NCBI GenBank assembly: GCA_951406725.2
Contig: OX597814.1
Coordinates: 105,896,001 to 105,960,000, forward strand
Length of the DNA stretch: 64,000 bases
From: Octopus vulgaris
Taxonomy: Eukaryota
Direction of reading: 5' to 3'
Shown: one piece after another, positions 1 through 44,960 of the stretch
Layout of the letters: the number at the start of each line of letters is the position of its first letter
Position numbering within the stretch: the first letter of the stretch is position 1
The notes under the pieces: model-generated
Seen by the model: the letters and a program-made list of their open reading frames with translations, nothing else
The model's database searches: none
What the model was told of the DNA's origin: nothing
Made by a program: the position numbers and the translations under genes

Positions 1-173
1 CGGTGTTTGCATCGAGGGCCGGTCCAGACGTTTGCTGGCATCCTAGTTGCTTTCTGTGCTCAGTCTGTGATGAGCTTCTAGTTGACCTGATCTACTTTTA
101 TCAAGACAGCCAATTATATTGCGGTCGGCACCACGCGGAGCAATTGAAGCCCAGATGTGCCGCATGTGATGAG
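1..173 (+). CDS. pk: Prickle-family protein, internal coding exon (5' end outside window): end of LIM1 and start of LIM2
   Basis: Frame from 3 reads [57 protein letters not shown], typical Prickle LIM1 ([10 protein letters not shown]...[16 protein letters not shown]). Donor GAG|GTTAGT at 173/174, phase 0. Confidence 0.93.
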
Positions 174-305
174 GTTAGTACCACCATACAATTATAATTA
201 GCCATTTCTCATTTTGTTTCTTTCTATTATTATTATTGTTGTTGGTTGTGGCGGTGGTGGTGGTGGGGTGTACGGGTGACGAGCTGGCACAATCGTTACT
301 ATAAA

Positions 306-700
306 GGCGACAAGCTGGCATGAACGTTAGCACGCCGGGCGAAATGCGTAGCCGTATTTCGTCTGCCGTTACGTTCTGAGTTTAAATTCCGCCCAGGTCG
401 ACTTTGCCTTTCATCCTTTCGGGGTCAATTAAATAAGTACCAGTTACGCACTGGGGTCGATGTAATCGACTTAATCCGTTTGTTTGTCCTTGTTTGTCCC
501 CTCTGTGTGTAGACCCTTGTGGACAGTAAAGAAATAAGAATCGTTACTATGTCCGGCAAAACGCTCAGCGGCATTTCGTCCATCTTTTCGTCCTGAGTTC
601 AAATTCCTGCAAGGTCAATTTCGCCTTTCATCGTTTCGGGGTCGATGATAAAATAAGTACCAGTCCTCCCCCACCCCCGAAATTGCAGGCTTTGTGCAAA
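306..700 (+). mobile_element. tRNA-derived SINE family A, one near-full copy plus an adjacent degenerate copy
   Basis: Head GCTGGCA..CGTTAGCACGCCGGGCGAAATG, B-box-like GAGTTCAAATTCC, central GCCTTTCATCCTTTCGGGGTCGATAAA...AGTACCAG domain. Recurs >10 times in the window. Confidence 0.85.
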
Positions 701-1048
701 AATGTGACTCCTCTCTTATTATCATTATCATTGTTGTTGTAGTTGTTGTTATTTACTCCTGTAGATTGGAGAACAACATTTGGACGACAGCTTGTGCCCT
801 TGGTGACCAGGATAACCCTAAATCTGTGGGGTTCTTTGATTGGCCTTTGCTGGAGGTTCCGCTTCATCGTAACACAAATGTGTCCGCATGTTTTATATAC
901 TTTGTATTTCAGTCCCCCCTCTCCTTTGTCCCCCCTCATCTTTAATGTAAACCCCCGCACAAATTGTAAGCGGTCCTTGTAATGTCCCTCTCATTTTCTG
1001 CCCCTGTGGAAAATAAATCATTATCATCATCATCAGGATTATTATTAA

Positions 1049-1260
1049 GGTGGCAGGCTAGCAGAACCGTTAGCACGCCGGAGAAAAATGCTCGGCGGTA
1101 TTTCGTTCGGCTTTACATTCTGAGTTCCACAATACGGCGAAGGTCGACTTTGCCTTTCATCCAATCGGGGTCGATAAAACAAGTACCAGTTATGTACTGA
1201 GGTCGATGTCATTGCCAAGCCCCCTCTCGAAATTTCTGGCCCTGTTCCTAAAGTAGAAGG
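1049..1260 (+). mobile_element. SINE family A copy
   Basis: Same head and GTCGACTTTGCCTTTCATCC..GGGGTCGATAAA..AGTACCAG core. Confidence 0.8.
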
Positions 1261-1308
1261 AAATATTATTTGATTTTCAAGTTGAAGAAGTTGATTATAG
1301 CCTGAAAC

Positions 1309-1383
<75 letters not shown>

Positions 1384-1705
1384 ATCTCTTTATCTCTCTC
1401 TCTCTAACAGTTATCACTTTCGTTTTTAGATGTAGTTACTTTTTGTGCCAACAACTAGAGACAAGTTTTATAGGAAGAATGTATGTGGGGAGAGTGTGTG
1501 TGTGTGTGTGTTACGATGTAAAATTTCACAGCTGCTTCGCTCAGTTTCCTCGCAGCTAAAGGCATTTATTAAATGAACTGTTTCTGAATTTGATTATTGT
1601 ATATCGCTCACAGCTAACTCGACAGACAATGTCCTAATAAACGGACAGGATTTTATATAAAGTAATAAATAACTCTGTCTGCCTGTCCTTCCGTCCGTCC
1701 ATCTG

Positions 1706-1788
<83 letters not shown>

Positions 1789-1797
1789 GTCTGCCTG

Positions 1798-1842
<45 letters not shown>

Positions 1843-1911
1843 TTATCTATCTATCTATCAATATATATATATATATATTTATCCATCCACCTGTCTATCT
1901 ATCTATTTATC

Positions 1912-1969
<58 letters not shown>

Positions 1970-2139
1970 TGTAGATATATATACCTGTCTAGCGGTTTGT
2001 CTCTGTGTTTCCATCTCAGTTTCATTCAAACAAATAAAAAACGAGATTTTCCTAAGACACAATGCTTTGAGATCGATCTCAGTACTTCTTTCTGCAAATT
2101 TTGGAAATTCTTTGCTCACAGGGACTACGAAGGACCAGA

Positions 2140-2480
2140 GTCCTGACTAAGCAAATAGTTCCGGGTTCAGTCCCACTGCGTGGCACCTTGCACAGGTGTC
2201 TTCTACTATAGCCTCGGGCCGACCAAAGCCTTGTGAGCGGATTTGGGAGACGGAAACTGAAAGAAGCCCGTCGTATAAGTGTCTGTGTGCGTGTGTGTGT
2301 CCACCATCCTTTGGCAACCGATGCTGGTGTGTTTACGTCCCTGTAACTTAGCGGTTCGGCAAAAGTGACCGATAGAATAAGTACTAGCTTCGTAAAGAAT
2401 AAGTCCTGGGGTCGATTTGTTCGACTAAAGGCGGTGCTCCAGCATGGCCGCAGTCAAATGATTGAAACAAGTAAAAGAAT
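2140..2480 (+). mobile_element. tRNA-derived SINE family B (octopus OK/OR-like) with internal TG/TA microsatellite
   Basis: GGTTCAGTCCCACTGCGTGGCACCTTG..., GACGGAAACTGAAAGAAGCCCGTCG, tail GGCGGTGCTCCAGCATGGCCGCAGTCAAATGATTGAAACAAGTAAAAGA. Many copies in the window. Family name from recall, not a search. Confidence 0.85.
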
Positions 2481-3019
2481 GTGTGTTGTAACACAAGTCA
2501 CTCTGACAAGATGTCCCTTAGATTAAAAAATGAAAGTGCTATGGCCTTTCCCCTCCCCGCTAACAACCTTCCTATATTTAGAAGACCATCGATTTTATAG
2601 AATTCCCTCAGGTCAATGCTGTCAGTTCGAGTAGATATTTCTCGGTCTTCACCTTCTGACTATTGCATTTCTTCTCATGTACTCAAAGAATATACTCCCC
2701 CCCCCCCCCAACTCCTTCCCATTCGTTTTCGCCGGCGTCGAAAGTCTACAGTCTCTAACGATGAGACCGACCGCAATGTTACATGCAGTTTATTACTTGG
2801 AAACTTCTTGAAAGACGACATGTAATTCGGTTTAACGAAAACCTAATCGTTGTTTAGAAACTGAATTCGGTCATTCAATAAACCGTGACTGTGAATAGAG
2901 GAGGAGGGCGCACAACATATGCCTTATTCTTTTTCTCATACATGCATACATATATATATATGCATACACACACATATATATACATACATATATATATACA
3001 TACATAGATATATATACAT

Positions 3020-3070
<51 letters not shown>

Positions 3071-3138
3071 TAAAATGATGATACACAGATAGATACGGTG
3101 ATAAATAGTTAGTGATAGATACACAAATAGAGATAGAC

Positions 3139-3193
<55 letters not shown>

Positions 3194-3794
3194 CAGATAG
3201 ATAGATACACAAATAGAGATAGATAGATGGATGGATGGATGTGTGTAGTGTGCGCGTATGAGAGTGTTTGTGCTAACCTGAATATTTGTATGGATGTATA
3301 CCTGCCTTTAATTACGTCTGCGCACAGATGTATTTGAATTAAATTACTTATAAAGAAGCTTTCTGCATGTGTGTGAGTGTGCCTGTTTATGTGTGTGTAT
3401 ATATATAGATATATGTATGTAGAAAAGGTGAAAGAATTATCTCTGCAGTTGTACATACCACCATAATCATGCGTACAGTTTCGAATACGTGACCTTAATT
3501 TGTCAATTCTAGTTCGTGTATAAAAAGAAGAGTAAGAAAGAAAAAATGCAATAAATATAAGAGAACAATCAACATTTGGCACAAGCAATTTCTGAAGACT
3601 TTCATTTATCAAAAACGGAAGAGAATTTAGCCTTAGACATTTCCAATTCTCATGGGATCTTCTGTATTTCACTTTCAACTATTTCAAGATGGCGAGCGTT
3701 CAGTAATTATCATATGTGGAAACACTTGTTTACATAATGATATGCATGGGAAAATATATCTGTAAATACATGTGTCGATGTGTGTGTGTGTACT

Positions 3795-3991
3795 CTTTTT
3801 TATTTGTTTCAGTCATTAGATTGCGGCCATGCTGGGGCACCGCGTTGAAGAATTTTAGTTGAACGAATCTTCTCCGGTGCTTCTTGTTTTAAGCCTGGTA
3901 CTTATTCTACGATATCTTTTGCCGACCCGGTTTTAAAGCAGTGGAGGAGGGGGGGGCAAACACAGGCAACAAAGTCACACACACACACATC

Positions 3992-4047
<56 letters not shown>

Positions 4048-4200
4048 GACGAGCTTCCTTCTGTTTCCGTCTATTAATCCACTCTCAAGGCTTTGGTCGG
4101 CCTGAGGCTGTAGTAGAAACACTTGGCCAAGGTGCCACGCAGTGGTACTGAGCCTGGAACCATGTGGTTGGGATGCAAGTTTCCTATCACACAGCCCACG
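3795..4200 (-). mobile_element. SINE family B copy
   Basis: Reverse complement of family B head and tail around an internal (CA)n(TA)n. Confidence 0.8.
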
Positions 4201-4239
4201 TGACCAGTGTTCGGCCAAGCCTGTCCTTTCTCTCTTGGT

Positions 4240-4662
4240 TCGGCCGCTGTCCGTGCAATATCTATATTCTTCCCTGCGCCTTTGAAATCTCCTATCCCTG
4301 CCGTAAGGCTTTATTTCCACACTCGCCAGCTGAATTTAATTCGTCGTTACTCGAAAGTCACCTGTTGTTATGTCCTGTTATTTGAATTTGTGTAACCTTC
4401 TCCGTTTTTCTCCCGTCCTTGTTTTCGTATACATTCGCTGCTTTCTTCCAAGGAATCTAATGCTCTTCGCTTAGTTTTTCCTTGGGACTGGCCAGATTGG
4501 AGTAATCTCGAGTATAACCAGCCGCAATTGCAAAGATAATCTGGAACACGACTGAGGAAAGAAAACTCCGAATAACCCGTCTTTGTTTTCTTTGTATCGA
4601 TGTTTTGTTGTCCCTTTTTTGTATCACCTGTCTGGATGTTTTTGCGTTCTTGTCCCATTTTG

Positions 4663-4665
<3 letters not shown>
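4240..4665 (+). mobile_element. Short unclassified element with pyrimidine-rich 3' end abutting (TA)n, possibly a Penelope pLTR fragment
   Basis: Same architecture as the hammerhead-bearing fragments elsewhere. Weak CTGAGGA...CTCCGAA motif at 4548-4581. Confidence 0.35.
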
Positions 4666-4698
<33 letters not shown>

Positions 4699-4717
4699 CG
4701 ACGTACGTACACTTTGG

Positions 4718-4815
<98 letters not shown>

Positions 4816-5164
4816 ACCTACGATCTTTTGATTTCGGAGATTAGTGTGCTAATTGTTCGATGTACAGAACTACGTAGTTGAATATTCTTCAGACCTGAGT
4901 ACCGTTTGCGTAATTCTTAGGCAGAAACTCTGTGATACAGTGTGGGACAAGACTCTACATTTGATCTCCAGCTGCCATTCCAGCGGGTTGTTGCTTCTGG
5001 AATTTTCCGCACGAGGTTAGGGTCGATTTGAGGCTATACTACAACGCTTGACCAAGATACCAAGCAGTGGAATAGAACCTGGCATATCAGAGTTTGAAAG
5101 CAAATTTCTTTAATTTCGCACCTGATTATACACACCTGCCACACACACAGACAGACAGACAGAC

Positions 5165-5213
<49 letters not shown>

Positions 5214-5343
5214 TATAGATAGATAGGTAGGTAGGTAGGTAGGTAGGTAGGTAGGTAGGTAGGTAGGTAAGTAGGTAGGTAGGTAGGTAGGTAGGTAGGT
5301 AGGTAGGTAGGTAGGTAGGTAGGTAGGAAGGTAGGTAGGTAGG

Positions 5344-5385
<42 letters not shown>

Positions 5386-5543
5386 TGTTAAAGAGTGAAT
5401 TATCCGTGATTCTGTAAGCATATACAAACACAGATTGCCACAAACCAATGACTTCCCTGAACTTTTGTTCTCCCCGTCAAAATTCAATTTCCTTTCTGTC
5501 TCACTTCCTTTTCTCTTTCCAACACAAAACATCCACACAAAAA

Positions 5544-5627
<84 letters not shown>

Positions 5628-5820
5628 TTCTGTTTTTCTTCGATGTAGGGTATTTAATCCAAACTTAAAATTTTTCGTTAAACCCTTTTTTCTCTTTCTG
5701 ACTTAAACCTAAGACATAAATCTGAGTTTCCATTATTAGTCGTGGTGTTGTGTGTTTCAATAATAGTCTGCACTACGCGTTGCAGCAGCCGCAGTGGTAG
5801 TAGTAATGAGGGTGATAATT

Positions 5821-5854
<34 letters not shown>

Positions 5855-6882
5855 GTGGTGGTGGTGGTGGTATCTCATCTTATCTTTCTCCTCATCAGAA
5901 TCATTATTTGGGAGGTGTTAGATTAGGCACGCTGTATGTTTTGCTTAGATTCAGATTTGGGTTTAGTAATTTGGCGAAGACGGGTGTTGTCTTGGGAGTT
6001 GCTGATTGTTGAGAAAATAAAAGATTGCTTATGTTATTTCTAACGAACATTTTCAGTAAAAAAAAAAAAAAAAAAAGAAAGGAGATAGGCGAAGAGGAAG
6101 CGGTGATAATATTTCTTTCTATCTTATTATGAATTCTGGTTTTTTCATAGCAACGAGCATAGCAACAGGAAGCTCGTTTACCTTGATACCTAATGCAATA
6201 AGCATATTAGTAAGAGAGCAAACACTCGACTCTCGTTGATCCAGAGGCTTGGGTTGGGTTCTTCTAAGAGTCTCTATATCTCTATCAGGCATATTTATTC
6301 CCTTCCTTAATCACTCCTGTTTCGTTTAATCTAAGCCGTGAAGTAAATGGGTGAAATGTTGAGTTCGACTACAGTTGCATTCGAGTGTACGCTTGAGTGT
6401 TCACGGGACTAGAGTATTTATCCCAAACATACACACCTACATACATACATACATACATACATACATACATACATACATAAATACATACATAGATATATGT
6501 GTGTGTGTGTGTCTGTATGCCTGTTTATATGCATGTATGTATATATGTGTGTGTGTGTGTGTATATATGTTTATATGCCTGTGTATATGTGTGTATATAT
6601 ATATATGCATGTGTGTATGTATATACGTATATATATGCATGTGTGTATGTACATAAGTATATATACATGTGCATGTATATAAGTATGCATATGTATATAT
6701 ATATATATATATATATACGTGTATGTGTATATATATATGCATGTGAGTATGCATATAAGTATATATACATATACACGCATGTGAGTATATATATACATGT
6801 GTATATGTATATTAGTATATATATATATATATATATATATAAATATATGTACGTGTAGGTGTGTATATATATATATATATGC

Positions 6883-6926
<44 letters not shown>

Positions 6927-6935
6927 GTGTGTATA

Positions 6936-7005
<70 letters not shown>

Positions 7006-7439
7006 CATATGTGTGTATCTCTCTCTCTCTATACATATATATATATATATATATATATAGATATATACAGATGCAGACGTGTCCATGTTGTTCTTGTACT
7101 CAGCATATAAAGTTACTTCTAAAAGCAAATGGATGACCATCTGTTTCGGCGATGAGCAAACCTTATCTTCGATGAAATTAACCAAATTCTCAATGAGATT
7201 AGTTTCTATGTGGCTGAGAAATCCACAGACAAGAGGCTCCTAAACACGATTGTTAGGTAGACATAATGTTACGCAACGAGTGGCAAGGCTGTATCTTTGA
7301 ATTCCATGTACCATCCATCCGACAGGGATTCTCTACAGTTTCCCGCTGCCCAATTTCAACCACAAAGCTTAGGTTTTCCAGAGACTCTAATCCAAAAATC
7401 TTTAACGTGCTTCAGTGTGTGTAGGGGGGAATATGCGAA

Positions 7440-7678
7440 CTTATATATTTCTTTACTGCCCACAAGGGGCTAAACATAGAGGGGACAAACAAGGACAGAC
7501 AAAAGGATTAAATCGATTACATCGACCCCAGTGCGAAACTGGTACTTTATTTATCGACCCCGAAAAGATGAAAGGCGAAGTCGACCCCGGCGGAATTTGA
7601 ACTTAGAATGTAAGGACAGACGAAATACTGTTAAGCATTTCGCCCGGCGTGCTAACGTTTCTGCCAGCTCGCCGCCTT
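7440..7678 (-). mobile_element. SINE family A copy
   Basis: Full reverse-complement match from tail TTTCTTTACTGCCCACAAGGGG to head CTGCCAGCTCGCC. Confidence 0.85.
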
Positions 7679-7809
7679 ATGAAGATAGTATGTATAACGC
7701 TCCGGGACAGCGAGATGTTTCTCTCCTTTAGATGTTTCTGTGAGTCCTCACTTTCCAAAGAGTTTCTCATAACTACTCGCTGTTCATAGCGGGCGGTGAC
7801 GAGGATCGA

Positions 7810-8140
7810 TCAGTTCCAGTCGAACAAATCGACCGTTGTATGTCTTTCGTTTAAGACTGCTACTGATTTTATAGGTCTCTTTTTGACAAACTGGTAAGAT
7901 ACGGGGATGTAAACACACCAACACCGGTTGTCAAGTGGTAGCTGAGGACAAGCACAAAGGCACACACACACACACATATGCGACGGGCATCTTTCAGATT
8001 CCGTCTGCCAAATCTACTCACGAGGCTTTGGTCAGCTCGAGGCTACATTAGAAGATACTTGACCAAGGCTCCACGCAGTGGGACTGAACCTGGACCCATA
8101 TGGTTGGGAAGCGAGCTTCTTACCACACAGCCACGTCTGT
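7810..8140 (-). mobile_element. SINE family B copy (degenerate)
   Basis: GTAAACACACCAACACCGGTTGTCAAG, CACGCAGTGGGACTGAACC, CTTACCACACAGCCAC. Confidence 0.75.
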
Positions 8141-8289
8141 ATTTATAGGTATTTATATTCCCCACCCACTCTTCATTCTCTATCTCTAATTAGTACAGCT
8201 GAGATCAGTTTTTACATAGATCAGAAGTTGAGTAATTTTCTACAGTTGGCCTTGCCTCGGGAGTTTCTCATCCTTGGCAAGAAATGCTT

Positions 8290-8362
<73 letters not shown>

Positions 8363-8571
8363 CACAGATGTATAAATGTCTGAATATGCGCGAGAAGTAA
8401 TGAATGGATATGTTTATATCATGTGTGTTTATTTAGACAAACACATGCACTCACGAGCACGGGATGAGAAATAGAGAAAGAGAGAGAGAGAGAGAGAGAG
8501 ACGAAAAGAGATACGCATTCACACACATACACACATATATACACACGCACATACACATATGTGTATGTTTC

Positions 8572-8607
<36 letters not shown>

Positions 8608-8863
8608 CATACTGATATGTGTATATACATATATGAAGATGCATGTGTGTGTGTGTATATACACTCGCGATGTTATCTCTCCTATACAACAGAGACGTTT
8701 TTTCTTTTTTTCTTATCTTTCCTGACTCGAAAAGTAATTAGTGTATTAATATATTTTAGTCATTACACTCTGCTGTCATATTTCAGATTATATCATTGAT
8801 GTAGTAATTCCACCATTTTCAGTTAGAACTAAAATAGACTAATGGGGCCTTACGCATGTTTAT

Positions 8864-8897
<34 letters not shown>

Positions 8898-9264
8898 CGC
8901 ATACATACATATTGTTGCCTCCCCACACACACACATACACACCTTCTTTCTAAGTAGATCTGACTTTAGCATTTAGTGCAACGCATTCTTCTGATGTAAT
9001 CGAGTGTGAAGCGAAAATCGTTTGATGAAGACAGCAACGGGAAACGGCAGCAGCAGTAATAACTTATGTTAATGGAGAGGGGAGAGGGGTGGTGGGAGGG
9101 ACACAGTAACTCGTCATGGGAGGGTGTGTAAAATGCTGTTTCATGATGGTGACGATGATGATGATTGCTAAAAAGGTGCTGGGAGATACACACACACACA
9201 CACACACACATACATACACACACATGCAGACAGATAGACATATCTGTGTGTGTGTGTGCTTATC

Positions 9265-9990
9265 TTTTATTCTTTTCCTTGCTTCAGTCATTTGACTGCG
9301 GCCATGCTGAGGCACCATCTTGAAGAATTTTAGTCGAACGGATCGGCACCAGTGATTATTCATTTTTATGCCTGGTTCTTACTCTATCGGTAGTTTTTTG
9401 TCGAACTGCTAACGCTAGTGGGACGTAAACACAGCAACACCGGTTGCCAGGTGGCTGTGGAGGACAAACACAGATACAAAGACACACACGAGCATACGAC
9501 GGGCTTCTTTCGGTTCCCATCTACCAAATCCACTTACAAGGCTTTGGTCGACTCGAGGTTATAGAAGAAGGCACTTGCTCATAGTACCACGCAAGGGGAC
9601 TGAACCCAGAACAATGCGGTCGGGAAGTAAACTTGTTGTGTGAAACCTGCTTTGCATCCACGTGGTTTCGTGTTCAATCCTAATGTGCGGCACCTTGGGC
9701 AAGGTGTCTTATTCTAAGCGCCAAGTTGGCCAATGTCTTCTGAAATAATCTGCGAGGCGGAAACTGTGGGTAAGCCCGTAGTATGTATGTGAGTGTGCGT
9801 GTGCGTGTATCTCCCGCCCTCATTGACAACCACTGTTCGTTTGCGATTCCGTAAACTTGTGGTTCGACAAAACTGCTCAATGGAATAAGAATCAGGCTTC
9901 GGAAAATAAGTGCTGGAATTGATTCATTCGAACAATTCCTTCAAACTGGTGCCCCGGCATGGCTGCAGCCCAATGAAAGAAACAAGTTAA
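9265..9990. mobile_element. Two SINE family B copies head-to-head (9265-9635 minus, 9640-9990 plus)
   Basis: Opposite-orientation matches to the family B head, GGCACCTTGGGCAAG core and CAGCATGGCCGCAG tail. Confidence 0.75.
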
Positions 9991-10057
<67 letters not shown>

Positions 10058-10059
<2 letters not shown>

Positions 10060-10215
10060 AGAATTCACGAAAAAAAAAAGACGAAGACAGGTGGTGTAGA
10101 AAGCAAACAGATGTATTAGTATAACGCTCAGGAATAGAAAAAGTATTTTACGTTTCGAGCCTACGCTCTTCTACAGAAAGGGGCACAGAATAAAACAAGG
10201 AGAGAAAAGAATGTG
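10058..10215 (-). mobile_element. Penelope-type pLTR fragment abutting (TA)n (same family as 29125-29270)
   Basis: Reverse complement shares GAAGAGCGTAGGCTCGAAACGTAAAA and the CACC..TCTTCGTCTTTT tail with the 29125-29270 copy. Confidence 0.6.
10146..10180 (-). ncRNA. Minimal type I hammerhead-like motif, A6U core variant
   Basis: Minus strand: CTTT-CTGTAGA-A-GAGC-GTAG-GCTC-GAAA-CGT-A-AAAT. Confidence 0.55.
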
Positions 10216-10436
10216 TGTAGAAGGGTCAGACAGGAGAGCAAAGAAGTAGGGGAGATAACAAAGTAAAGATGACCCCCACAATGAAGGTGCGTGCGTGTGT
10301 GCGTGTGAGAGAGGGCTGGTGGTCTTGACGTGTGCGTATGTGTATGTGTAGGTGTGAAAATGTGGGGATGGGAATTGGTCAGTGCTGGTGTATGGGTGGT
10401 GTGATGTGATGTATAATATATATATATATATATATA

Positions 10437-10599
10437 GGCAGAGGATTGGCTGTGTGGTAAGACGTTGGCTTCCAAACCATATGGTTCTGGGTTCAAGTAC
10501 AACTGCGTAGTACGTTGGGCAAGTGTCTTCTAAATTGCCCTCAGCCAACGAAAAGCCTTGTGAATGGATTTGGTAGACGGAAACTGAAAGATGCCCGTC

Positions 10600-10600
<1 letters not shown>
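10437..10600 (+). mobile_element. SINE family B, 5' half (split by Penelope insertion)
   Basis: TGGCTGTGTGGTAAG...TTGGGCAAGTGTCTTCT...GCCCGTCG, then the internal (TA)n. Confidence 0.85.
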
Positions 10601-10663
<63 letters not shown>

Positions 10664-10750
10664 AAGGGTGAAAAGGAACACACGAGTTGATATATATGAA
10701 AAAACAAGTCAAAAATAGAAAATGCTAAAATAATTTTATAGTGAACATTT

Positions 10751-10788
10751 CAGTACCGATTTCGGTCATTTTGAGACCTTTTCAACTG
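10751..10788 (-). ncRNA. Type I hammerhead ribozyme motif (U3-A8 variant), left arm
   Basis: Exact reverse complement of the 12211-12248 motif. Confidence 0.7.
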
Positions 10789-11413
10789 TAACGATTAAAT
10801 AATTAAATTTAGAAAAATTAGAAGAAAAGTTTTTTTAAAAGAATATTTCTATAGTAGTGTTCAGATTTAAGTGGCATTCTGCCTTTCTCTGACTCCCTTG
10901 TTTGCACTTGTGTGTCGGAGGTCGTTGTGAGTTCTTGGAAGGGTAGTAGAGGAAGAAGGCTGGTGGGGAAAGGGGGATGGGAGAATCTGGGAGTGCCCTG
11001 ATGGTCGTATTTTGAATGGTCAGTGGCGGCTGGCAGTCTCAGTTCAATTCAGGAGAATATTTATATTGACAGGCTTGTTTATAGAATTAGCGTAGGTGTT
11101 ATACTAAAAAACATTAGTGACAAAGTTAAGGGGTAGGGGGTGGAGAAGTAGAAGAAGAAGAAGAAGAAGGAGAAGGAGAAGATGACGATGATGGTGGTGG
11201 TGGTGATGATTATGACGACGATGATGATGATAATGATGATGATGAAGAAGAAGAAGGAGGAGAAGGAGAAGATGGTGGTGATGATGGTGGTGATGATGAT
11301 GACGACGATGATGATGATAATGATGATGATGAAGAAGAAGAGGAAGAAGAAGAAGAAAAAAAACAGAGAAGGGGGAATATGAATGGGTGTAAGTATAGCT
11401 ATGAAGGGGCTGA

Positions 11414-11870
11414 TTAGTAATGGATTCTATGGAGTGTAATATTTGTGTGTGTATATATATTTTTTTCTTTTATTCTAAAGTTGAGGTATATTAATTGTTT
11501 GTCGTTAGACCCGTTTAGAAGTGGCTTGTATTTTGTAATAAAGAGATTTTCTTTACTTATTCGTTGTCTCGAGGTTGTATCGTCCCTAAATTGGTAGAGG
11601 GGGAAAATTCTGAAGTTTGGTGTTTTTTTGTTGGCGCAAGTATCTATGTGTTGGCTAAAAGCTATTTTTCTGTTTTGGGGAATTTTTATCTGGGATCTGT
11701 GCAGGGCCATTCGTTTACGCAAACCATTTTTTGTTTGGCCTATGTACTGCTCTTGACACCCGGAGCAGGTTAGTGAGTATATTAGGTTCTCCGAAGCACA
11801 TGTGGAGTTGCTTTTCACTGTAAACCGTTGTCCCTGCTTGAAGGAGAACTCTGATCCCTCAATTAGATAG
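11414..11870 (-). pseudogene. Truncated GIY-YIG endonuclease domain of a Penelope-like element (no RT present)
   Basis: YLIEGSEFSFKQGQRFTVKSNSTCASENLIYSLTCSGCQEQYIGQTKNGLRKRMALHRSQI...FSQH...ENLFITKYKPLLN: LIY/YIG motifs, catalytic-type Arg, Glu and Asn, and Cys residues as in Cys-containing PLE clades such as Neptune. Frame is open up to the inversion junction. Confidence 0.88.
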
Positions 11871-12210
11871 TCGCTTTGTCACTAATGTTTTTTAGTATAA
11901 CACCTACGCTAATTCTATAAACAAGCCTGTCAATATAAATATTCTCCTGAATTGAACTGAGACTGCCAGCCGCCACTGACCATTCAAAATACGACCATCA
12001 TGGCACTCCCAGATTCTCCCATCCCCCTTTCCCCACCAGCCTTCTTCCTCTACTACCCTTCCAAGAACTCACAACGACCTCCGACACACAAGTGCAAACA
12101 AGGGAGTCAGAGAAAGGCAGAATGCCACTTAAATCTGAACACTACTATAGAAATATTCTTTTAAAAAAACTTTTCTTCTAATTTTTCTAAATTTAATTAT
12201 TTAATCGTTA

Positions 12211-12248
12211 CAGTTGAAAAGGTCTCAAAATGACCGAAATCGGTACTG
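12211..12248 (+). ncRNA. Type I hammerhead ribozyme motif (U3-A8 variant), right arm
   Basis: CAG-TTGAAAA-GGTC-TCAAAAT-GACC-GAA-A-TCGG-T-A-CTG: stem I CAG/CTG, core UUGAAAA, stem II GGTC/GACC, GAAA, GUA cleavage triplet. Confidence 0.7.
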
Positions 12249-12297
12249 AAATGTTCACTATAAAATTATTTTAGCATTTTCTATTTTTGACTTGTTT

Positions 12298-12355
<58 letters not shown>

Positions 12356-12480
12356 GTTTGTGTATTTGTGTTTGTCCCCCCACAACCATCGCTTGATAAC
12401 CAATAGAATAAGTACTAGGCTTACAATAGATTTGTTCTATAAGGCGGTGCTCCAGCATGGCCGCAGTCAAATTACTGAAA
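12356..12480 (+). mobile_element. SINE family B, 3' half resuming after the Penelope insertion
   Basis: GTGTTTGTCCCCCCACAACCATCGCTTGA...GGCGGTGCTCCAGCATGGCCGCAGTCAAAT. Confidence 0.8.
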
Positions 12481-13679
12481 GAAGCACACACACACACGTA
12501 TAGAAAAAGAGATAGAAAGAAAGAGAGGACGGTGAGAGACAGATTGCATGATGTGTCGTCCTGTGTGTAGGTGGGAACACGTGTCTACCTAATTATGTTT
12601 ACACACATTGCTGACTAATTATTACTTATTAACTCTGTTAATTGGCACGAATTCATAATTTCTACTGCATCCTTCCTCCGCCGCTCCACCACCACCACCA
12701 CCACTCATCCTTCACCCGTTTTAGAAACACCCTCCTGCTTTTTCCGTTTCGCTTTATGAATCTGTACCAAGGCAGAGTATGTCATACAGCATGTATATAT
12801 GCGCAGGCGGGGTGCGTGCATGTGTTTGCGCATGCGTAGAATGTTTAGTCATATATGGTCTCTTTGCAAGCGGTTAAAAACTATGCTGGTGCTAGTGTTA
12901 CAAAGCAGTGAGTCAACAAACACGCTGGCCGACAGGATCCACGCTTTGCGCAGGTAAAAAGATAAAAGCTTGCCTTGTGCGGCCACACATCTCGCCGCGG
13001 TAAGAATTAAGGGAGAGTGTAAGAGAAGTGGAGACAATCCTGGTCTGGCAACATCAAAGACTGGAGAGTTCACATCATCGTGATCCTGCTACGTATGATA
13101 GCGGACAGTGACCAGTGGCGACGGCTGACCGTAAAAGCGTCAAGAGGGACACCCTAACGACTCGTTGCATCAGTAAGGGAATTTGATGATTATCCACAAA
13201 GAGTGGTGAATGTGTTTATTACAGTATAATGTATATGTGCGTATTTCTACATGCACTGAGTATTGGAGGTGCGTGAGCAGGAGTGGAAGTATGTCCAGAC
13301 GTTTATGTCATTTGCTCGTATGTTGCGCTATTTAACTTTATACTACACCACTGCTACCTGTCAGAGTTATCTCTCCTTGATTCTCAATAATCTAAATTCT
13401 CGTATGTGTATACTATCTTCTCCTTTATAAATGTCACGTTAACGCGATCTCATTGCTGTCCAATCGTTAATTTATGCTCCGTCGGCCATTTTGTCATAGT
13501 AAATATTCATTATTTGTCCTTGCATATTCTCATTGAAATGGCTGCCTAAAGATAGACATTGTGACGTTCGATGTAAATCATCTTTAACCAGTTTGCAGTA
13601 ATCTTACCAAGTTATATATTTATGTTTTATTTCTGGATATCGTGTACTTAATCTCCCACCGTTTCTACACACACACGCA

Positions 13680-13759
<80 letters not shown>

Positions 13760-13843
13760 ATTCAAAAGTGAAATATAGAATGAACATAATGTATATTCTT
13801 AGCTGTTCTCTTATTCCTGTTTTTTGCTTTTATTTCTTTTCAG

Positions 13844-15448
13844 ATCATTTTTGCCGATGAATGTACAGAAGCAGAAGGTCGAAGCTGGCACATGAAACAC
13901 TTCTGTTGTTTCGAATGTGATTTTCAGCTGGGTGGAACACGTTACTTCATGCGAGAAGGCCGTCCCTATTGCTGCGACTGCTTTGATAGGATGTATACCC
14001 GCTATTGTGATACGTGTGGAGATAGTATCAGTACTGAAGAAGATCAGATAATGTACGAAGGCCAGCATTGGCATGCTCTTCCTCAATGCTTCAAGTGTCA
14101 CACGTGTCAAAAGTCATTACTGGGACAACGATATTTACCGAAACATGGCGTTATATATTGCTCTGCGTCGTGCAGCCGTGCGGGGTCAATGCAGACCCAG
14201 ACACCCAGGAGGCCCGAAGACTATTTTCATGATTTAAATCTCCAGAGTTATGCCTTGCCCCATTCCCCTCCAGCCCAACACCAAATGTCGCTGTCCATCC
14301 ATGATGCATCACTGGAACCTCCGTTGACCAGTGACTTCCAGCAACAATGTACGTTGGACAGCTGCGTCTCATCCGACCGCGACCAGGGCTACGCGACAAG
14401 CAGCAATAGCGAGGTATATGCCCCGCTCGGCGGGTTCGATTATGTCCGACCAGTTACACCTCACAAAGACGAAACAGATATATTTGATTACGATTTTACT
14501 CGAAACGGTTTTGTGGACTCAGCACCTGTTTGTAAGGAGCTCAGGAGAAAAAACCGTTTGTCTCAGTTCTCAATGCCAGACTTAACGAAAGATATGCCAG
14601 GTTCACCGGAAACCGAGAGGAGAGCTGCGTTCAATAACTGGAACAGAGGCCGACACGGCTCTGAACGAAATCTCGATAATCCACAGCATCTTAATGACTA
14701 CAAGCGACCCGAGGAGGAAAATATCTACCAGGAAATTCTATCGAATCATGTTTCTTCGTATAACAGATCCAGCTCGTCGACAGAATGTTCAGTGAAAACG
14801 TGTCAAAGCGACGTTTTGCAGCAACACAAGCGAAACGAACGCTCTTTGACGCCAACCAGAGATTACTCGTCGATACCGTTGCCTGATGACAAGAAAATGA
14901 ATCCGATATCAAGGCCGAATGACCCGCGAATTCAATATGAAATTAGGCAGCATTTAATCCAGCAACAACAGCAACAGCAAGGAATACCGCAACAGCAACA
15001 TCGCCACCTTCAGCAGCAGTATCAGCTGCAACAACAGCAGCAGCAACAACAACAACAGCAACAACACATGCCACTCGGCTGCCCACGGAGTCGCAGTTTC
15101 GATAGCCGGCCCATGGTTGTTCATTTTAGTGAGCCACCACATCAGGGAGAAATATCAACGACAGGAGAATACAAACGAAGCCCTTCAGATCCAGCCTTAT
15201 CTAGTAACAGTGAAAAATACGTCGATGGCGGTCACGCAGACGACCATTGCAGCACGTGTTCCAGTTCCAGTGACTCTGACGATTATTATTATTCTTTCGA
15301 CTGTTCCAGTCGTTATGGTACACGTATTTCCTACGTGGATGACGTCGGTATGTCCGTGTGTAGAATGGGACGTGGTGGCCGTGTGGAAGGTCGGAATGTT
15401 AGTGGTAGAAGCCATCGTGGTCGAAGCAAACACTGTGCAATATCTTAA
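13844..15448 (+). CDS. pk: Prickle-family protein, terminal coding exon: LIM2, LIM3, polyQ, Ser/Asp-rich C-terminal region, CaaX
   Basis: Pyrimidine tract plus CAG acceptor at 13841-13843, then [25 protein letters not shown]... in frame with the 13892..15448 ORF and phase-compatible with the upstream exon (CDE|[13 protein letters not shown] is the conserved Prickle junction). LIM3 CDTC...HWHA..CFKCHTC...[15 protein letters not shown] and RISYVDD motifs. Ends in CAIS-stop (CaaX). Confidence 0.95.
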
Positions 15449-36850: not shown

Positions 36851-37099
36851 ACTCACTATTAAAATATACGCAAGCAACATACATTAGTCGCGAACGTACA
36901 TTAGTAAGTTTGTCACAATCAAAGCTAGACACCTGATTAGGGACGCTCAATCAAGAATGCAAATTTTGGCAGTAATGTTTGCATCAAACACATTAGTCCT
37001 GAGAAATATTAGAGAGGCAGCAACACACACCAATATAACTTCATCCTGGAAATTTATTGCTTCAAGAACAAAAAACAAAAAATACATATATATATATGT

Positions 37100-37265
37100 A
37101 GGAGTGGCTGTGTGGTAAGTAGCTTGCTTACGAACCACATGTTTCCAGGTTCAGTACCACTGCGTGGCACCTTGGGCAAGTGTCTTCTCCTATAGCCTCG
37201 AGCCGACCAAAGCCTTGTGAGTGGATTTGGTAGACGGAAACTGAAAGAAGCCTGTCGTATGTATG

Positions 37266-37317
<52 letters not shown>

Positions 37318-37505
37318 TCCCCCAACATCGATTGACAACCGATGCTGGTGTGTTTACGTCCCCGTCACTTAGCGGTTCGGCAAAAGAGACCGATAGAATA
37401 AGTACTAGGCTTACAAAGAATAAGTCCTGGGGTCGATTTGCTCGACTAAAGGTGGTGCTCCAGCATGGCCACAGTCAAATGACTGAAACAAGTAAAAGAG
37501 TAAAA
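37100..37505 (+). mobile_element. SINE family B, full-length young copy
   Basis: AGGAGTGGCTGTGTGGTAAG head to GACTGAAACAAGTAAAAGAG tail, with internal (TA)(TG)n. Confidence 0.9.
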
Positions 37506-40177: not shown

Positions 40178-40845
40178 AGGCACAAGGCCCTAAATTTTAG
40201 GGGAGACGGCCAGTCGATAAGATCGACCCCAGTACGCAACTGGTAGTTAATTTATCGACCCCGAAAGGATGAAAGGCAAAGTCGACCTCGGTGGAATTTA
40301 AACTCAGAACGTAGCGGCAGACGAAATACCTATTTCTTTACTACCCACAAGGGACTAAACATAGAGAGGACAAACAAGGACAGACAAACGGATTAAGTCG
40401 ATTATATCGACCTCAGTGCGTAACTGGTACTTATTTAATCGACCCCGAAAGGATGACAGGCAAAGTCGACCTCGGTGGAATTTGAACTCAGAACGTAAAG
40501 ACAGACGAAATACCTATTTCTTTACTACCCACAAGAACGTAACGGCAGACGAAATACGGCTACGAATTTCGCCCAGCGTGCTAACGCTTTTGCCAGCTCG
40601 CCGCCTTAAAATACCTATTCCTTTACTACCCACAAGGGGCTAAACACAGAGAGGACAAACAAGGACAGACACACGGATTAAGTCGATTATATCGACCCCA
40701 ATGCGTAACTGGTACTTATTTAATCGACCCCAAAAGGATGAAAGGCAAAGTCGATCTCGGCGGAATTTGAACTCAGAACGTAACGGCAGACGAAATACCG
40801 TTAAGCATTTCACCCGGTGTGCTAACGTTTCTGCCAGCTCGTAGC
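40178..40845 (-). mobile_element. Tandem multimer of SINE family A
   Basis: Three repeats of the ATCGACCCCGAAAGGATGA..GGCAAAGTCGA core joined at GAAATACCTATTTC junctions. Confidence 0.85.
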
Positions 40846-43934: not shown

Positions 43935-44960
43935 ATCTGGCAGAATCGTTAGCACGCCGAGCAAAATACTTAGAAGTATTTCGTCTGTTTTCACGTTCTG
44001 AGTTCAAATTCTGCCGGGGTTGACTTTGCCTTTCACCCATTTGGCGTCGATAAATTAAGTACCAGTAACGCACTGGGGTCGATATAATCGACTTAATCCG
44101 TTTGTCTGTCCTTGTTTGTCCTCTTTATGTTTAGCCCCTTGTGGAGAGTAAAGAAATAGGTATTTCGTCTGCCACTACGTTCTGAGTTCAAATTCCGCCG
44201 AGGTCGATTTTGTCTTTCATCCTTTCGGGGTCGATAAATTAACTACCAGTTGCGTACTGGGGTCGATCTTATCGACTGGCCGTCTCCCCTAAAATTTAGG
44301 GCCTTGAGGTATTTCGTCTGTCTTCACGTTCTGAGTTCAAATTCTGCCGGGGTTGACTTTGCCTTTAACCCTTTTGGCGTCGATAAATTAAGTACCAGTT
44401 ACGCACTGGGGTCGATATAATCGACTTAATCCGTTTGTCTGTCCCTGTTTGTCCCCTCTTTGTGTAGCTCCTTGTGGGCAGTAAAGAAATAGGTATTTCG
44501 TCTGTCTTTACGTTCTGAGTTCACATTCTGCCGGGATCGAATTTGCCTTTCATCCTTTTCGGGTCAATAAATTAAGTACCAGTATCGCACTGGAGTCAAT
44601 GTAATCGACTGGTTTCCTCCCACGAAATGTCAGTCCTTGTGCCTAAAGTAGAAAGGATTAATATTTAATGTTTTAAAGCGTTTAGCGGGCAGAAAGGTTA
44701 GCGCGCTAAACAAAATGCTTAACGTCGTTTCGTCCAACTTTACGTTCTGAGTTCAAATTCCACCGAGATCAACTTTGTCTTTCATCCACTCGGGGTCGAT
44801 AAAATTAGTACCAGTTGAACACTGGGGTCTATGTAATCGACTTTCTCCCTCCCTCCAAAATTTCAGGCCTTGTGTCACTCCGAGGGTGTTCGGTTCAAAC
44901 CCCGTCAATATCAACTTTGCCTTTACTTTCCTTCCGGCCTGATCTATAAAATAAGTACCA
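43935..44960 (+). mobile_element. Tandem multimer of SINE family A (one head plus 4 core units to ~44660) and adjacent degenerate copies
   Basis: Units restart at GTATTTCGTCTG near 43977, 44160, 44309 and 44493. Confidence 0.85.

What the first reader, a model, noticed from the sequence alone, without database searches (positions are those of the whole stretch)
10696..12303. Very young Penelope insertion forming a 430-bp near-perfect hairpin inside the prickle intron
Seen: arms 10696-11125 and 11874-12303 are reverse complements, with only one mismatch noticed (GTGCCCTGATG vs GTGCCATGATG). They enclose the 3' end of a GIY-YIG ORF cut at the inversion junction, and both 3' ends point outward into (TA)n. 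Established: inverted pLTR arrangements are a hallmark of PLE integration. Inference: this is a recent, possibly polymorphic insertion from a still-active family, primed on both strands at TA repeats. The prickle pre-mRNA would fold into a long dsRNA stem, a substrate for ADAR (very active in coleoids) or Dicer, 1.5 kb upstream of the last acceptor.
Basis: partly seen in the sequence, partly recalled or inferred. Interest (0 to 1): 0.75.

Follow-up and report, generated by a model that had tools for sequence, protein, structure and literature searches.

The report
Back-to-back Penelope insertion, one-tailed
A young Penelope-type jumping gene sits in the last intron of prickle as two back-to-back copies, a known layout that is common in this genome; across its family almost always exactly one arm carries a short tail, which suggests both cut DNA ends likely copied the same element RNA, while any effect on prickle is untested.

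Summary
The hairpin is real: arms 10690-11125 and 11874-12309, one mismatch. It belongs to a young Neptune/Nematis-type PLE family (unit about 4.4 kb, RT plus GIY-YIG, minimal hammerhead) and lies in prickle's last coding intron. It is not special: 68 of 139 family loci examined are head-to-head, and 18 of 57 measured have fully identical arms. The useful result is family-wide. Exactly one arm is tailed in 64 of 68 pairs, and in 20 of 22 and 10 of 10 in two sister families. The two arms share a subfamily haplotype in 41 of 45 pairs (9.9% at random), and their lengths are coupled. Either arm can be the longer, which argues against simple fold-back. Most likely both target strands prime reverse transcription on RNA of one source, at the two sites bracketing the tail. 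The layout and one-sided tail are published, and this scan noted similar insertions on other DNA before. Polymorphism and ADAR/Dicer effects could not be tested.

The parts
10437..10600 (+). 5' half of the host SINE (target repeat)
   Evidence: 76-87% identity to 10 other copies in the window, e.g. 37082-37259
10601..10659 (.). left part of the target (TA)n
10660..10697 (-). PLE tail, 38 nt, on this end only; 5' half and loop of a stem-loop that precedes ORF1 in tandem copies
   Evidence: identical stretch in tandem copies L034 and L061 and at other tailed ends
10698..11125 (-). left arm = terminal 428 nt of the long (tailed) copy
10735..10799 (-). minimal type I hammerhead-like motif, U3-A8 core, private change at 10759 in the loop-III palindrome
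   Evidence: Rfam HH9 15.8 bits, far below gathering 52; core identical in 103 of 115 arms; read by eye against PMC4209133
11126..11413 (-). 3' UTR with length-variable trinucleotide tract
11414..11874 (-). 5'-truncated end of ORF2: GIY-YIG domain with CCHH motif; private 1-nt insertion at 11506 and substitution at 11805
11874..11874 (.). head-to-head junction, 1-nt microhomology
11874..12301 (+). right arm = second, tail-less copy of the terminal 428 nt
12200..12264 (+). second hammerhead-like motif with the same private change (12240), sense to prickle
12302..12354 (.). right part of the target (TA)n
12355..12485 (+). 3' half of the same host SINE
   Evidence: colinear with the intact copy at 37299-37492
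13845..15448 (+). last coding exon of prickle (intron about 173-13844)

Best explanation
This is one young insertion of a Neptune/Nematis-type Penelope-like retrotransposon into the (TA)n of a SINE, made of two 5'-truncated copies joined head to head; it likely arose when both cut target strands primed reverse transcription on RNA from one source element, one at each of two AU-rich sites that bracket the tail. Inferred steps: the GIY-YIG nuclease nicks both strands of (TA)n. One 3' end anneals to the AU run just before the stem-loop and gives the tail-less arm (here 428 nt). That site is then occupied, so the other end likely primes at the AU run in the loop 38 nt downstream and gives the tailed arm (here about 1.2 kb), displacing the first cDNA if both sit on one molecule. 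The two cDNA ends are joined at 0-5 nt of microhomology. The copy cannot encode RT and is probably neutral; the pre-mRNA stem is predicted to be an ADAR substrate, which is untested.
For: One-tail rule: 64 of 68 head-to-head loci with both ends, among all 139 loci holding an exact family end on C1, C2 and the first 48.3 Mb of C3 (binomial p 6e-15 against 0.5). Replicated from coordinates alone in two sister families, 20 of 22 and 10 of 10, and in 5 of 5 two-armed loci among 10 fetched family-B loci. Same source: arms differ by 0.98% within a locus (57 of 68 measurable) against 4.0% across loci (3192 pairs). 41 of 45 informative pairs share the haplotype at 8-12 diagnostic sites against 9.9% of 1978 random pairs. 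18 sample-private variants are shared by both arms, one of them in this window (10759/12240). Lengths are coupled in 60 of 64 measurable pairs: both <=250 nt 26, both longer 27, tailed short with tail-less long 7, the reverse 0 (Fisher p 8e-11), and short and long classes share haplotypes. The tail-less arm is longer in 26, the tailed in 19, equal within 10 nt in 15, so neither arm is always a copy of the other. Both 3' end points fall in AT runs in all three families. In vitro, an anole PLE cleaves and extends both strands and starts RT at two sites bracketing the tail; its protein is predicted to be a dimer (PMC11167929, main text read).
Against: Two of 45 pairs have clearly different haplotypes (L079: 4 sites, L127: 3 sites) and two differ at one site, so two templates or template switching do occur. 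100 private variants sit in one arm only against 18 shared; later mutation or RT error would give this, but it was not separated out. Four of 68 pairs break the rule; on inspection L108 has mirrored flanks too, L190 has an eroded tail remnant, L086 has three ends and L198 has unlike arms. Single-armed tailed copies exist (13 of 71 other loci), so the tail site can prime alone. Genomic data cannot tell one RNA molecule from two RNAs of one source locus. (TA)n hides any target-site duplication, so a single event here rests on SINE colinearity and the shared private variant. The anole study found RT start sites not homologous to the cut DNA, whereas annealing is assumed here.
Confidence: 0.68

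Rival explanations
1. Two RNA molecules from one source locus, held by an asymmetric protein dimer, each prime one strand; the one-tail rule comes from dimer geometry, not from occupancy of a site on one RNA.
For: Explains shared haplotypes and private variants if one source dominates in a cell, and explains the unlike pairs L079 and L127 directly. A dimer is predicted for the anole protein (PMC11167929). Earlier scan notes report unlike arms at single loci.
Against: Needs an extra assumption for the exclusion of like ends (64 of 68) and for coupled lengths. Several subfamilies share this genome, yet mixing is rare.
Confidence: 0.3
2. Classical twin priming on one tandem transcript: the tail-less arm comes from the 3' pLTR and the tailed arm from the upstream pLTR/ORF1 junction.
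For: Fits the 7 pairs with a short tailed arm and a long tail-less arm, and the absence of the reverse. Tandem arrays exist. 5' ends cluster about 200-240 nt from the element end (48 of 184 arms in two 20-nt bins), as a promoter in the pLTR would give.
Against: Arm lengths should then be independent, but 53 of 60 pairs fall in the same length class. This window's 1.2-kb tailed arm would need a long upstream copy that carries the same private variant.
Confidence: 0.15
3. Fold-back or self-priming (on cDNA, or on an antisense RNA as proposed in PMC3846280) makes a hairpin, and the nuclease trims the tail from one end on integration (as suggested in PMC8557442).
For: Gives same-template arms. Some junctions sit on palindromes, including the hammerhead loop (L069, L120) and a 4-nt palindrome near the 5' hotspot.
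Against: A DNA fold-back of a tail-less first cDNA cannot make a tail, yet the tail-less arm is the longer in 26 of 60 pairs. Some short arms begin with sequence from elsewhere in the element (L074, L109, L184). Palindromes also suit annealing of two cDNA ends.
Confidence: 0.12
4. Assembly artefact or later DNA-level inverted duplication or gene conversion.
For: Near-perfect palindromes can be chimeric; L108 shows that DNA-level mirroring occurs.
Against: The flanks here are not mirrored and resume one SINE; the ends are asymmetric as in the whole family; arm divergence does not rise with spacer length (rho -0.23, p 0.09).
Confidence: 0.04

Closest known systems
Inverted-pLTR insertion units of EN+ Penelope-like elements with optional one-sided 30-40 bp tail (Adineta Pen2a_Av, PMC3846280; general scheme, PMC8557442; passages read)
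   Same: Head-to-head 5'-truncated copies, 3' ends outward, tail at one end, hammerhead in each terminal repeat, microsatellite target.
   Different: No full ORF between the arms at this locus; no visible TSD because of (TA)n. The papers call the tail optional or often one-sided; here it is counted as near-obligatory in two-armed insertions and mostly absent from single-armed ones.
Neptune (or Nematis) clade PLEs
   Same: C-terminal GIY-YIG with CCHH, CX2-5CxxC linker (here C-x4-C-x2-C), DKG motif, (TA)n targeting.
   Different: Neptune versus Nematis was not resolved, as no reference set could be loaded. The family has a separate overlapping ORF1; the legend of Fig. 1 in PMC8557442 mentions an ORF1 with frameshift, but I could not see for which clade.
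PAc (Poseidon, anole) in vitro TPRT with two internal RT start sites (PMC11167929)
   Same: Two start sites bracket the tail at a stem-loop 3' of the hammerhead; both strands are cut and extended; AT-rich target.
   Different: Different clade (no linker zinc finger in Poseidon); its hammerhead overlaps the ORF start; the paper does not pair the two sites within one insertion, and reports no homology between primer and start site.
L1 twin priming (recalled, from no call)
   Same: Both target strands prime, giving an inversion with microhomology at the junction.
   Different: L1 inverts an upstream, non-overlapping part of one RNA; here the same terminal segment is present twice.
Minimal PLE hammerheads (PMC4209133, part 1 of 4 read)
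   Same: U3-A8 core variant, palindromic loop III, pairs of motifs 100-700 bp apart on opposite strands.
   Different: This copy has a private change in the palindrome in both arms; it would still self-pair through G-U wobble (inference). Activity untested.

Membership tests
EN+ Penelope-like elements | RT and GIY-YIG endonuclease in one ORF | tested here: met
   784-aa frame in family copy L037: RVT_1 E 4.9e-8, GIY-YIG E 3.8e-4 (just under the curated cut-off; the window piece passes it)
EN+ Penelope-like elements | CCHH motif with two Cys between GIY and YIG | tested here: met
   read in the translation; definition from PMC8557442
EN+ Penelope-like elements | partial tandems forming pLTRs, inverted 5'-truncated copies, 30-40 nt tail | tested here: met
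EN+ Penelope-like elements | hammerhead motif in the pLTR | tested here: inconclusive
   core and stems fit the published minimal U3-A8 form and are conserved in 103 of 115 arms, but Rfam gives only 15.8 bits, E 4.2; cleavage not testable
Neptune/Nematis type | C-terminal EN with CX2-5CxxC linker | tested here: met
   C-x4-C-x2-C just upstream of GIY-YIG
Neptune clade proper | RT phylogeny with named Neptune references | not testable with these tools
   the 120 listed homologues carry no clade names
Naiad/Chlamys | N-terminal GIY-YIG | tested here: not met
   EN at residues 688-775 of 784
Penelope/Poseidon | absence of the linker zinc finger | tested here: not met
   linker present
Hydra | CCHH absent, CxCX5C linker | tested here: not met
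   CCHH present
Foldback/MITE DNA transposon | fixed terminal inverted repeats shared by copies | tested here: not met
   arm lengths and junctions differ from copy to copy; arms are 3' ends of a retroelement
ADAR-edited intronic inverted repeat | A-to-G clusters in RNA over the arms | not testable with these tools
   only DNA-type contigs could be laid

The most novel reading that the evidence does not exclude
Penelope-like elements copy one RNA molecule twice: the two cut target strands prime at the two sites bracketing the tail, the first blocks its site, and the second RT displaces the first cDNA. This single rule would explain inverted pLTRs, the one-sided tail and coupled arm lengths, and would make PLE insertion itself a source of hundreds of ready-made perfect dsRNA hairpins per family in the octopod genome.
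Probability: 0.45. Interest if true: 0.65.

Novelty: new member of a known kind. Interest (0 to 1): 0.4.

Why it matters
The single insertion is ordinary. How PLEs make inverted ends and one-sided tails is named as open in PMC8557442 and PMC11167929. The counts here (94 of 100 pairs one-tailed over three families, same-source arms, coupled lengths) turn that into a sharp prediction for the existing in vitro system. About half of the family's loci being hairpins also offers one concrete source for the high share of near-perfect dsRNA-forming loci and hyper-editing reported for octopus (PMC5625713, passages read); that link is inference.

Tried and rejected
Polymorphism: Logan contigs of five runs were laid (X1, X3, X4, X5; X1-X4). 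No listed piece crossed the junction at 11874 and the private base at 12240 was not seen, but these are contigs, most pieces were not shown, and a hole proves nothing, so presence or absence is undecided. Expression and editing: no RNA holder listed; no evidence either way. Rfam: only microsatellite-driven miRNA hits and the weak HH9 match. The repeat finder on the whole window was swamped by microsatellites. ORF1 has no significant Pfam match; the protein atlas could not take it. No stable structure was found by RNAfold after the slippery heptamer, so a pseudoknot is not shown. A separate short non-autonomous subfamily as the cause of length coupling was rejected because short and long classes share haplotypes. 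Re-mobilisation of whole hairpins was rejected because junctions mostly differ. Gene conversion was not supported. Literature: six searches listed no paper that counts tail pairing or arm haplotypes; the library lacks most subscription papers, including the 2005-2006 reviews that define the tail, and no supplements were read. Rows dropped: 11 of 68 pairs had under 60 shared sites; 19 of 64 had under 8 diagnostic sites; 4 of 64 had no measurable junction. In families B and C duplicate hits of the gapped pattern were merged, only the range covered by both lists was used, and the tail pattern also hits internal tandem junctions. Junction overlaps come from BLAST ends and are approximate.

Full report
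Observation. The two arms pair from 10690/12309 to 11125/11874 with one mismatch (10998 against 12001) and enclose 748 nt. The element body ends at 10698 and 12301. The spacer carries the 3' UTR tract and a minus-strand GIY-YIG domain, truncated at 11874 in the last cysteine codon of the linker zinc finger, with one base shared by both arms. The host gene is prickle on the plus strand: 93% to an Argonauta prickle-like protein, previous exon ending near 172, last coding exon from about 13845, PET exon upstream of the window. The insertion ends 1.54 kb before the acceptor. RNAfold gives the full stem for the plus strand.

The left end continues for 38 nt (10660-10697) before the (TA)n. That stretch is the start of the next unit in tandem copies and is the PLE tail. 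The right end lacks it. The flanks are the 5' and 3' halves of one SINE, colinear with the intact copy at 37082-37492 and other copies in the window, so the target was the SINE's internal microsatellite. Each arm holds a minimal hammerhead-like motif with a U3-A8 core (weak; conserved in 103 of 115 arms; variant described in PMC4209133). Both arms carry the same private change in it (10759/12240; none of about 190 other aligned hits has it). Three other changes are confined to one place (11506, 11805, 12001).

Family. A search of the own genome gave 1736 candidates, of which 40 were scored, all 98-100% identical. [quoted passage not shown] By the criteria in PMC8557442 (passages) this is Neptune/Nematis type. 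Exact end patterns count 362 tailed ends or tandem junctions and 572 tail-less ends genome-wide.

Family-wide test. I fetched all 139 loci with an exact end on C1, C2 and the first 48.3 Mb of C3, the window's locus among them. 68 are head-to-head with both ends: 64 one-tailed, 2 tail/tail, 2 tail-less/tail-less. The other 71 are 53 tail-less, 13 tailed, 3 junction-only and 2 same-direction pairs. The four exceptions look compound or secondary. A few 'single' loci carry a tiny inverted second arm of the opposite type (L080, L168, L195). Two sister families, found through ORF1 at 70% and 65% identity, give 20 of 22 and 10 of 10 from coordinates.

Source of the arms. Within-locus divergence is 0.98% (57 pairs) against 4.0% across loci. 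Several subfamily haplotypes coexist; 41 of 45 informative pairs match, 2 differ at one site, 2 at three or four, against 9.9% matches at random. 18 private variants are shared by both arms and 100 are in one arm. Arm lengths are correlated (rho 0.62) and split into a short and a long class that rarely mix: 26, 27, 7 and 0. The tail-less arm is longer in 26, the tailed in 19, equal in 15. Junctions overlap by 1-5 nt in 33 of 60, are blunt in 7, overlap more in 6 and have inserted bases in 14.

Mechanism. Shown: the anatomy, the one-tail rule, the shared source, the TA target. From the literature: an anole PLE cleaves and extends both strands and starts at two sites that bracket the tail (PMC11167929, parts 1-2 of 4 read); the one-sided tail and inverted pLTR are described, with self-priming on an antisense template (PMC3846280, passages) or nuclease resolution (PMC8557442) offered as explanations. 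Inferred: both target strands prime, each at a different site, on RNA of one source. Simple fold-back fails because a tail-less first copy cannot template a tail. Copying one molecule twice explains why like ends are excluded; two RNAs in an asymmetric dimer explain the rare unlike pairs. The genome cannot separate these two, so I give the double-priming model 0.68 overall and the one-molecule version 0.45.

Host effect. The stem is predicted and octopus has very high hyper-editing and many near-perfect dsRNA-forming loci (PMC5625713, passages), so editing in a carrier is plausible. Nothing here tests it. With about 390 family hairpins expected (68 in 490 Mb) and 18 of 57 arm pairs fully identical, this locus is neither unusually young nor unusually perfect. 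The sense-strand hammerhead would be buried in the duplex (inference).

Earlier notes. This scan has reported the same layout in this genome and in others. Two notes stress arms from different parents; my counts make that the minority case in this family (2 to 4 of 45). The notes did not supply the model, which was stated before the first look-up.

Verdict. Real, correctly identified in kind, a new member of a known class. Interest 0.4, nearly all of it from the family-wide counts that make an open mechanistic question testable. The bioRxiv preprint 10.64898/2026.07.22.740005 was seen in passages only and did not bear on the result. No supplements were read; those of PMC8557442 and PMC11167929 may hold clade references and tail data relevant to novelty.

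Noticed in passing
L037:5370-5433; L212 and L217 (sense 3986-4125): In all three families ORF1 overlaps the RT-EN frame in the -1 register, with a conserved U UUU UUA heptamer in the ORF1 frame (25 of 28 family-A copies). In families A and B the RT frame has no AUG before its first conserved motif, the ORF1 stop overlapping that place; family C has an AUG there. A -1 frameshift or stop-start reinitiation is likely; no downstream structure was predicted.
   Followed up: partly
family A, 200-240 nt before the element end: Sharp cluster of 5' ends (48 of 184 arms in two 20-nt bins) in tailed, tail-less and single arms alike: a transcription start in the pLTR or an RT stop. A smaller cluster lies at the hammerhead loop and cut site.
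   Followed up: partly
G000 C9:10675034-10684336 and C9:55714366-55723625: Three-unit tandem arrays of the family at about 4.4-kb spacing with ORF1 parts 100% identical to the query.
   Followed up: no
G000, families B and C: Two more young PLE families: 1114 tail-pattern hits for B; 147 tailed and 527 tail-less ends for C. B appears tail-rich and C tail-poor, yet both keep the one-tail pairing.
   Followed up: partly
window 40183-40513 and 43976-44653: 331-nt inverted pair at 93% with 3.5 kb between, the right copy tandemly doubled (period 333); SINE-like.
   Followed up: no
window 2149-9627: Four more copies of the same SINE in both orientations inside the same prickle intron, 76-79% identical to the target copy: weaker potential dsRNA partners that predate the insertion.
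   Followed up: no
L108 (G000 C2:65830013-65832962): Tail/tail hairpin whose flanking DNA is mirrored as well, pointing to a DNA-level inverted duplication or a local assembly issue.
   Followed up: partly
P0150, P0191, P0196, P0197, P0201, P0215: Close PLE homologues are labelled as proteins of bivalve gill-symbiont bacteria; probably host DNA in symbiont bins.
   Followed up: no
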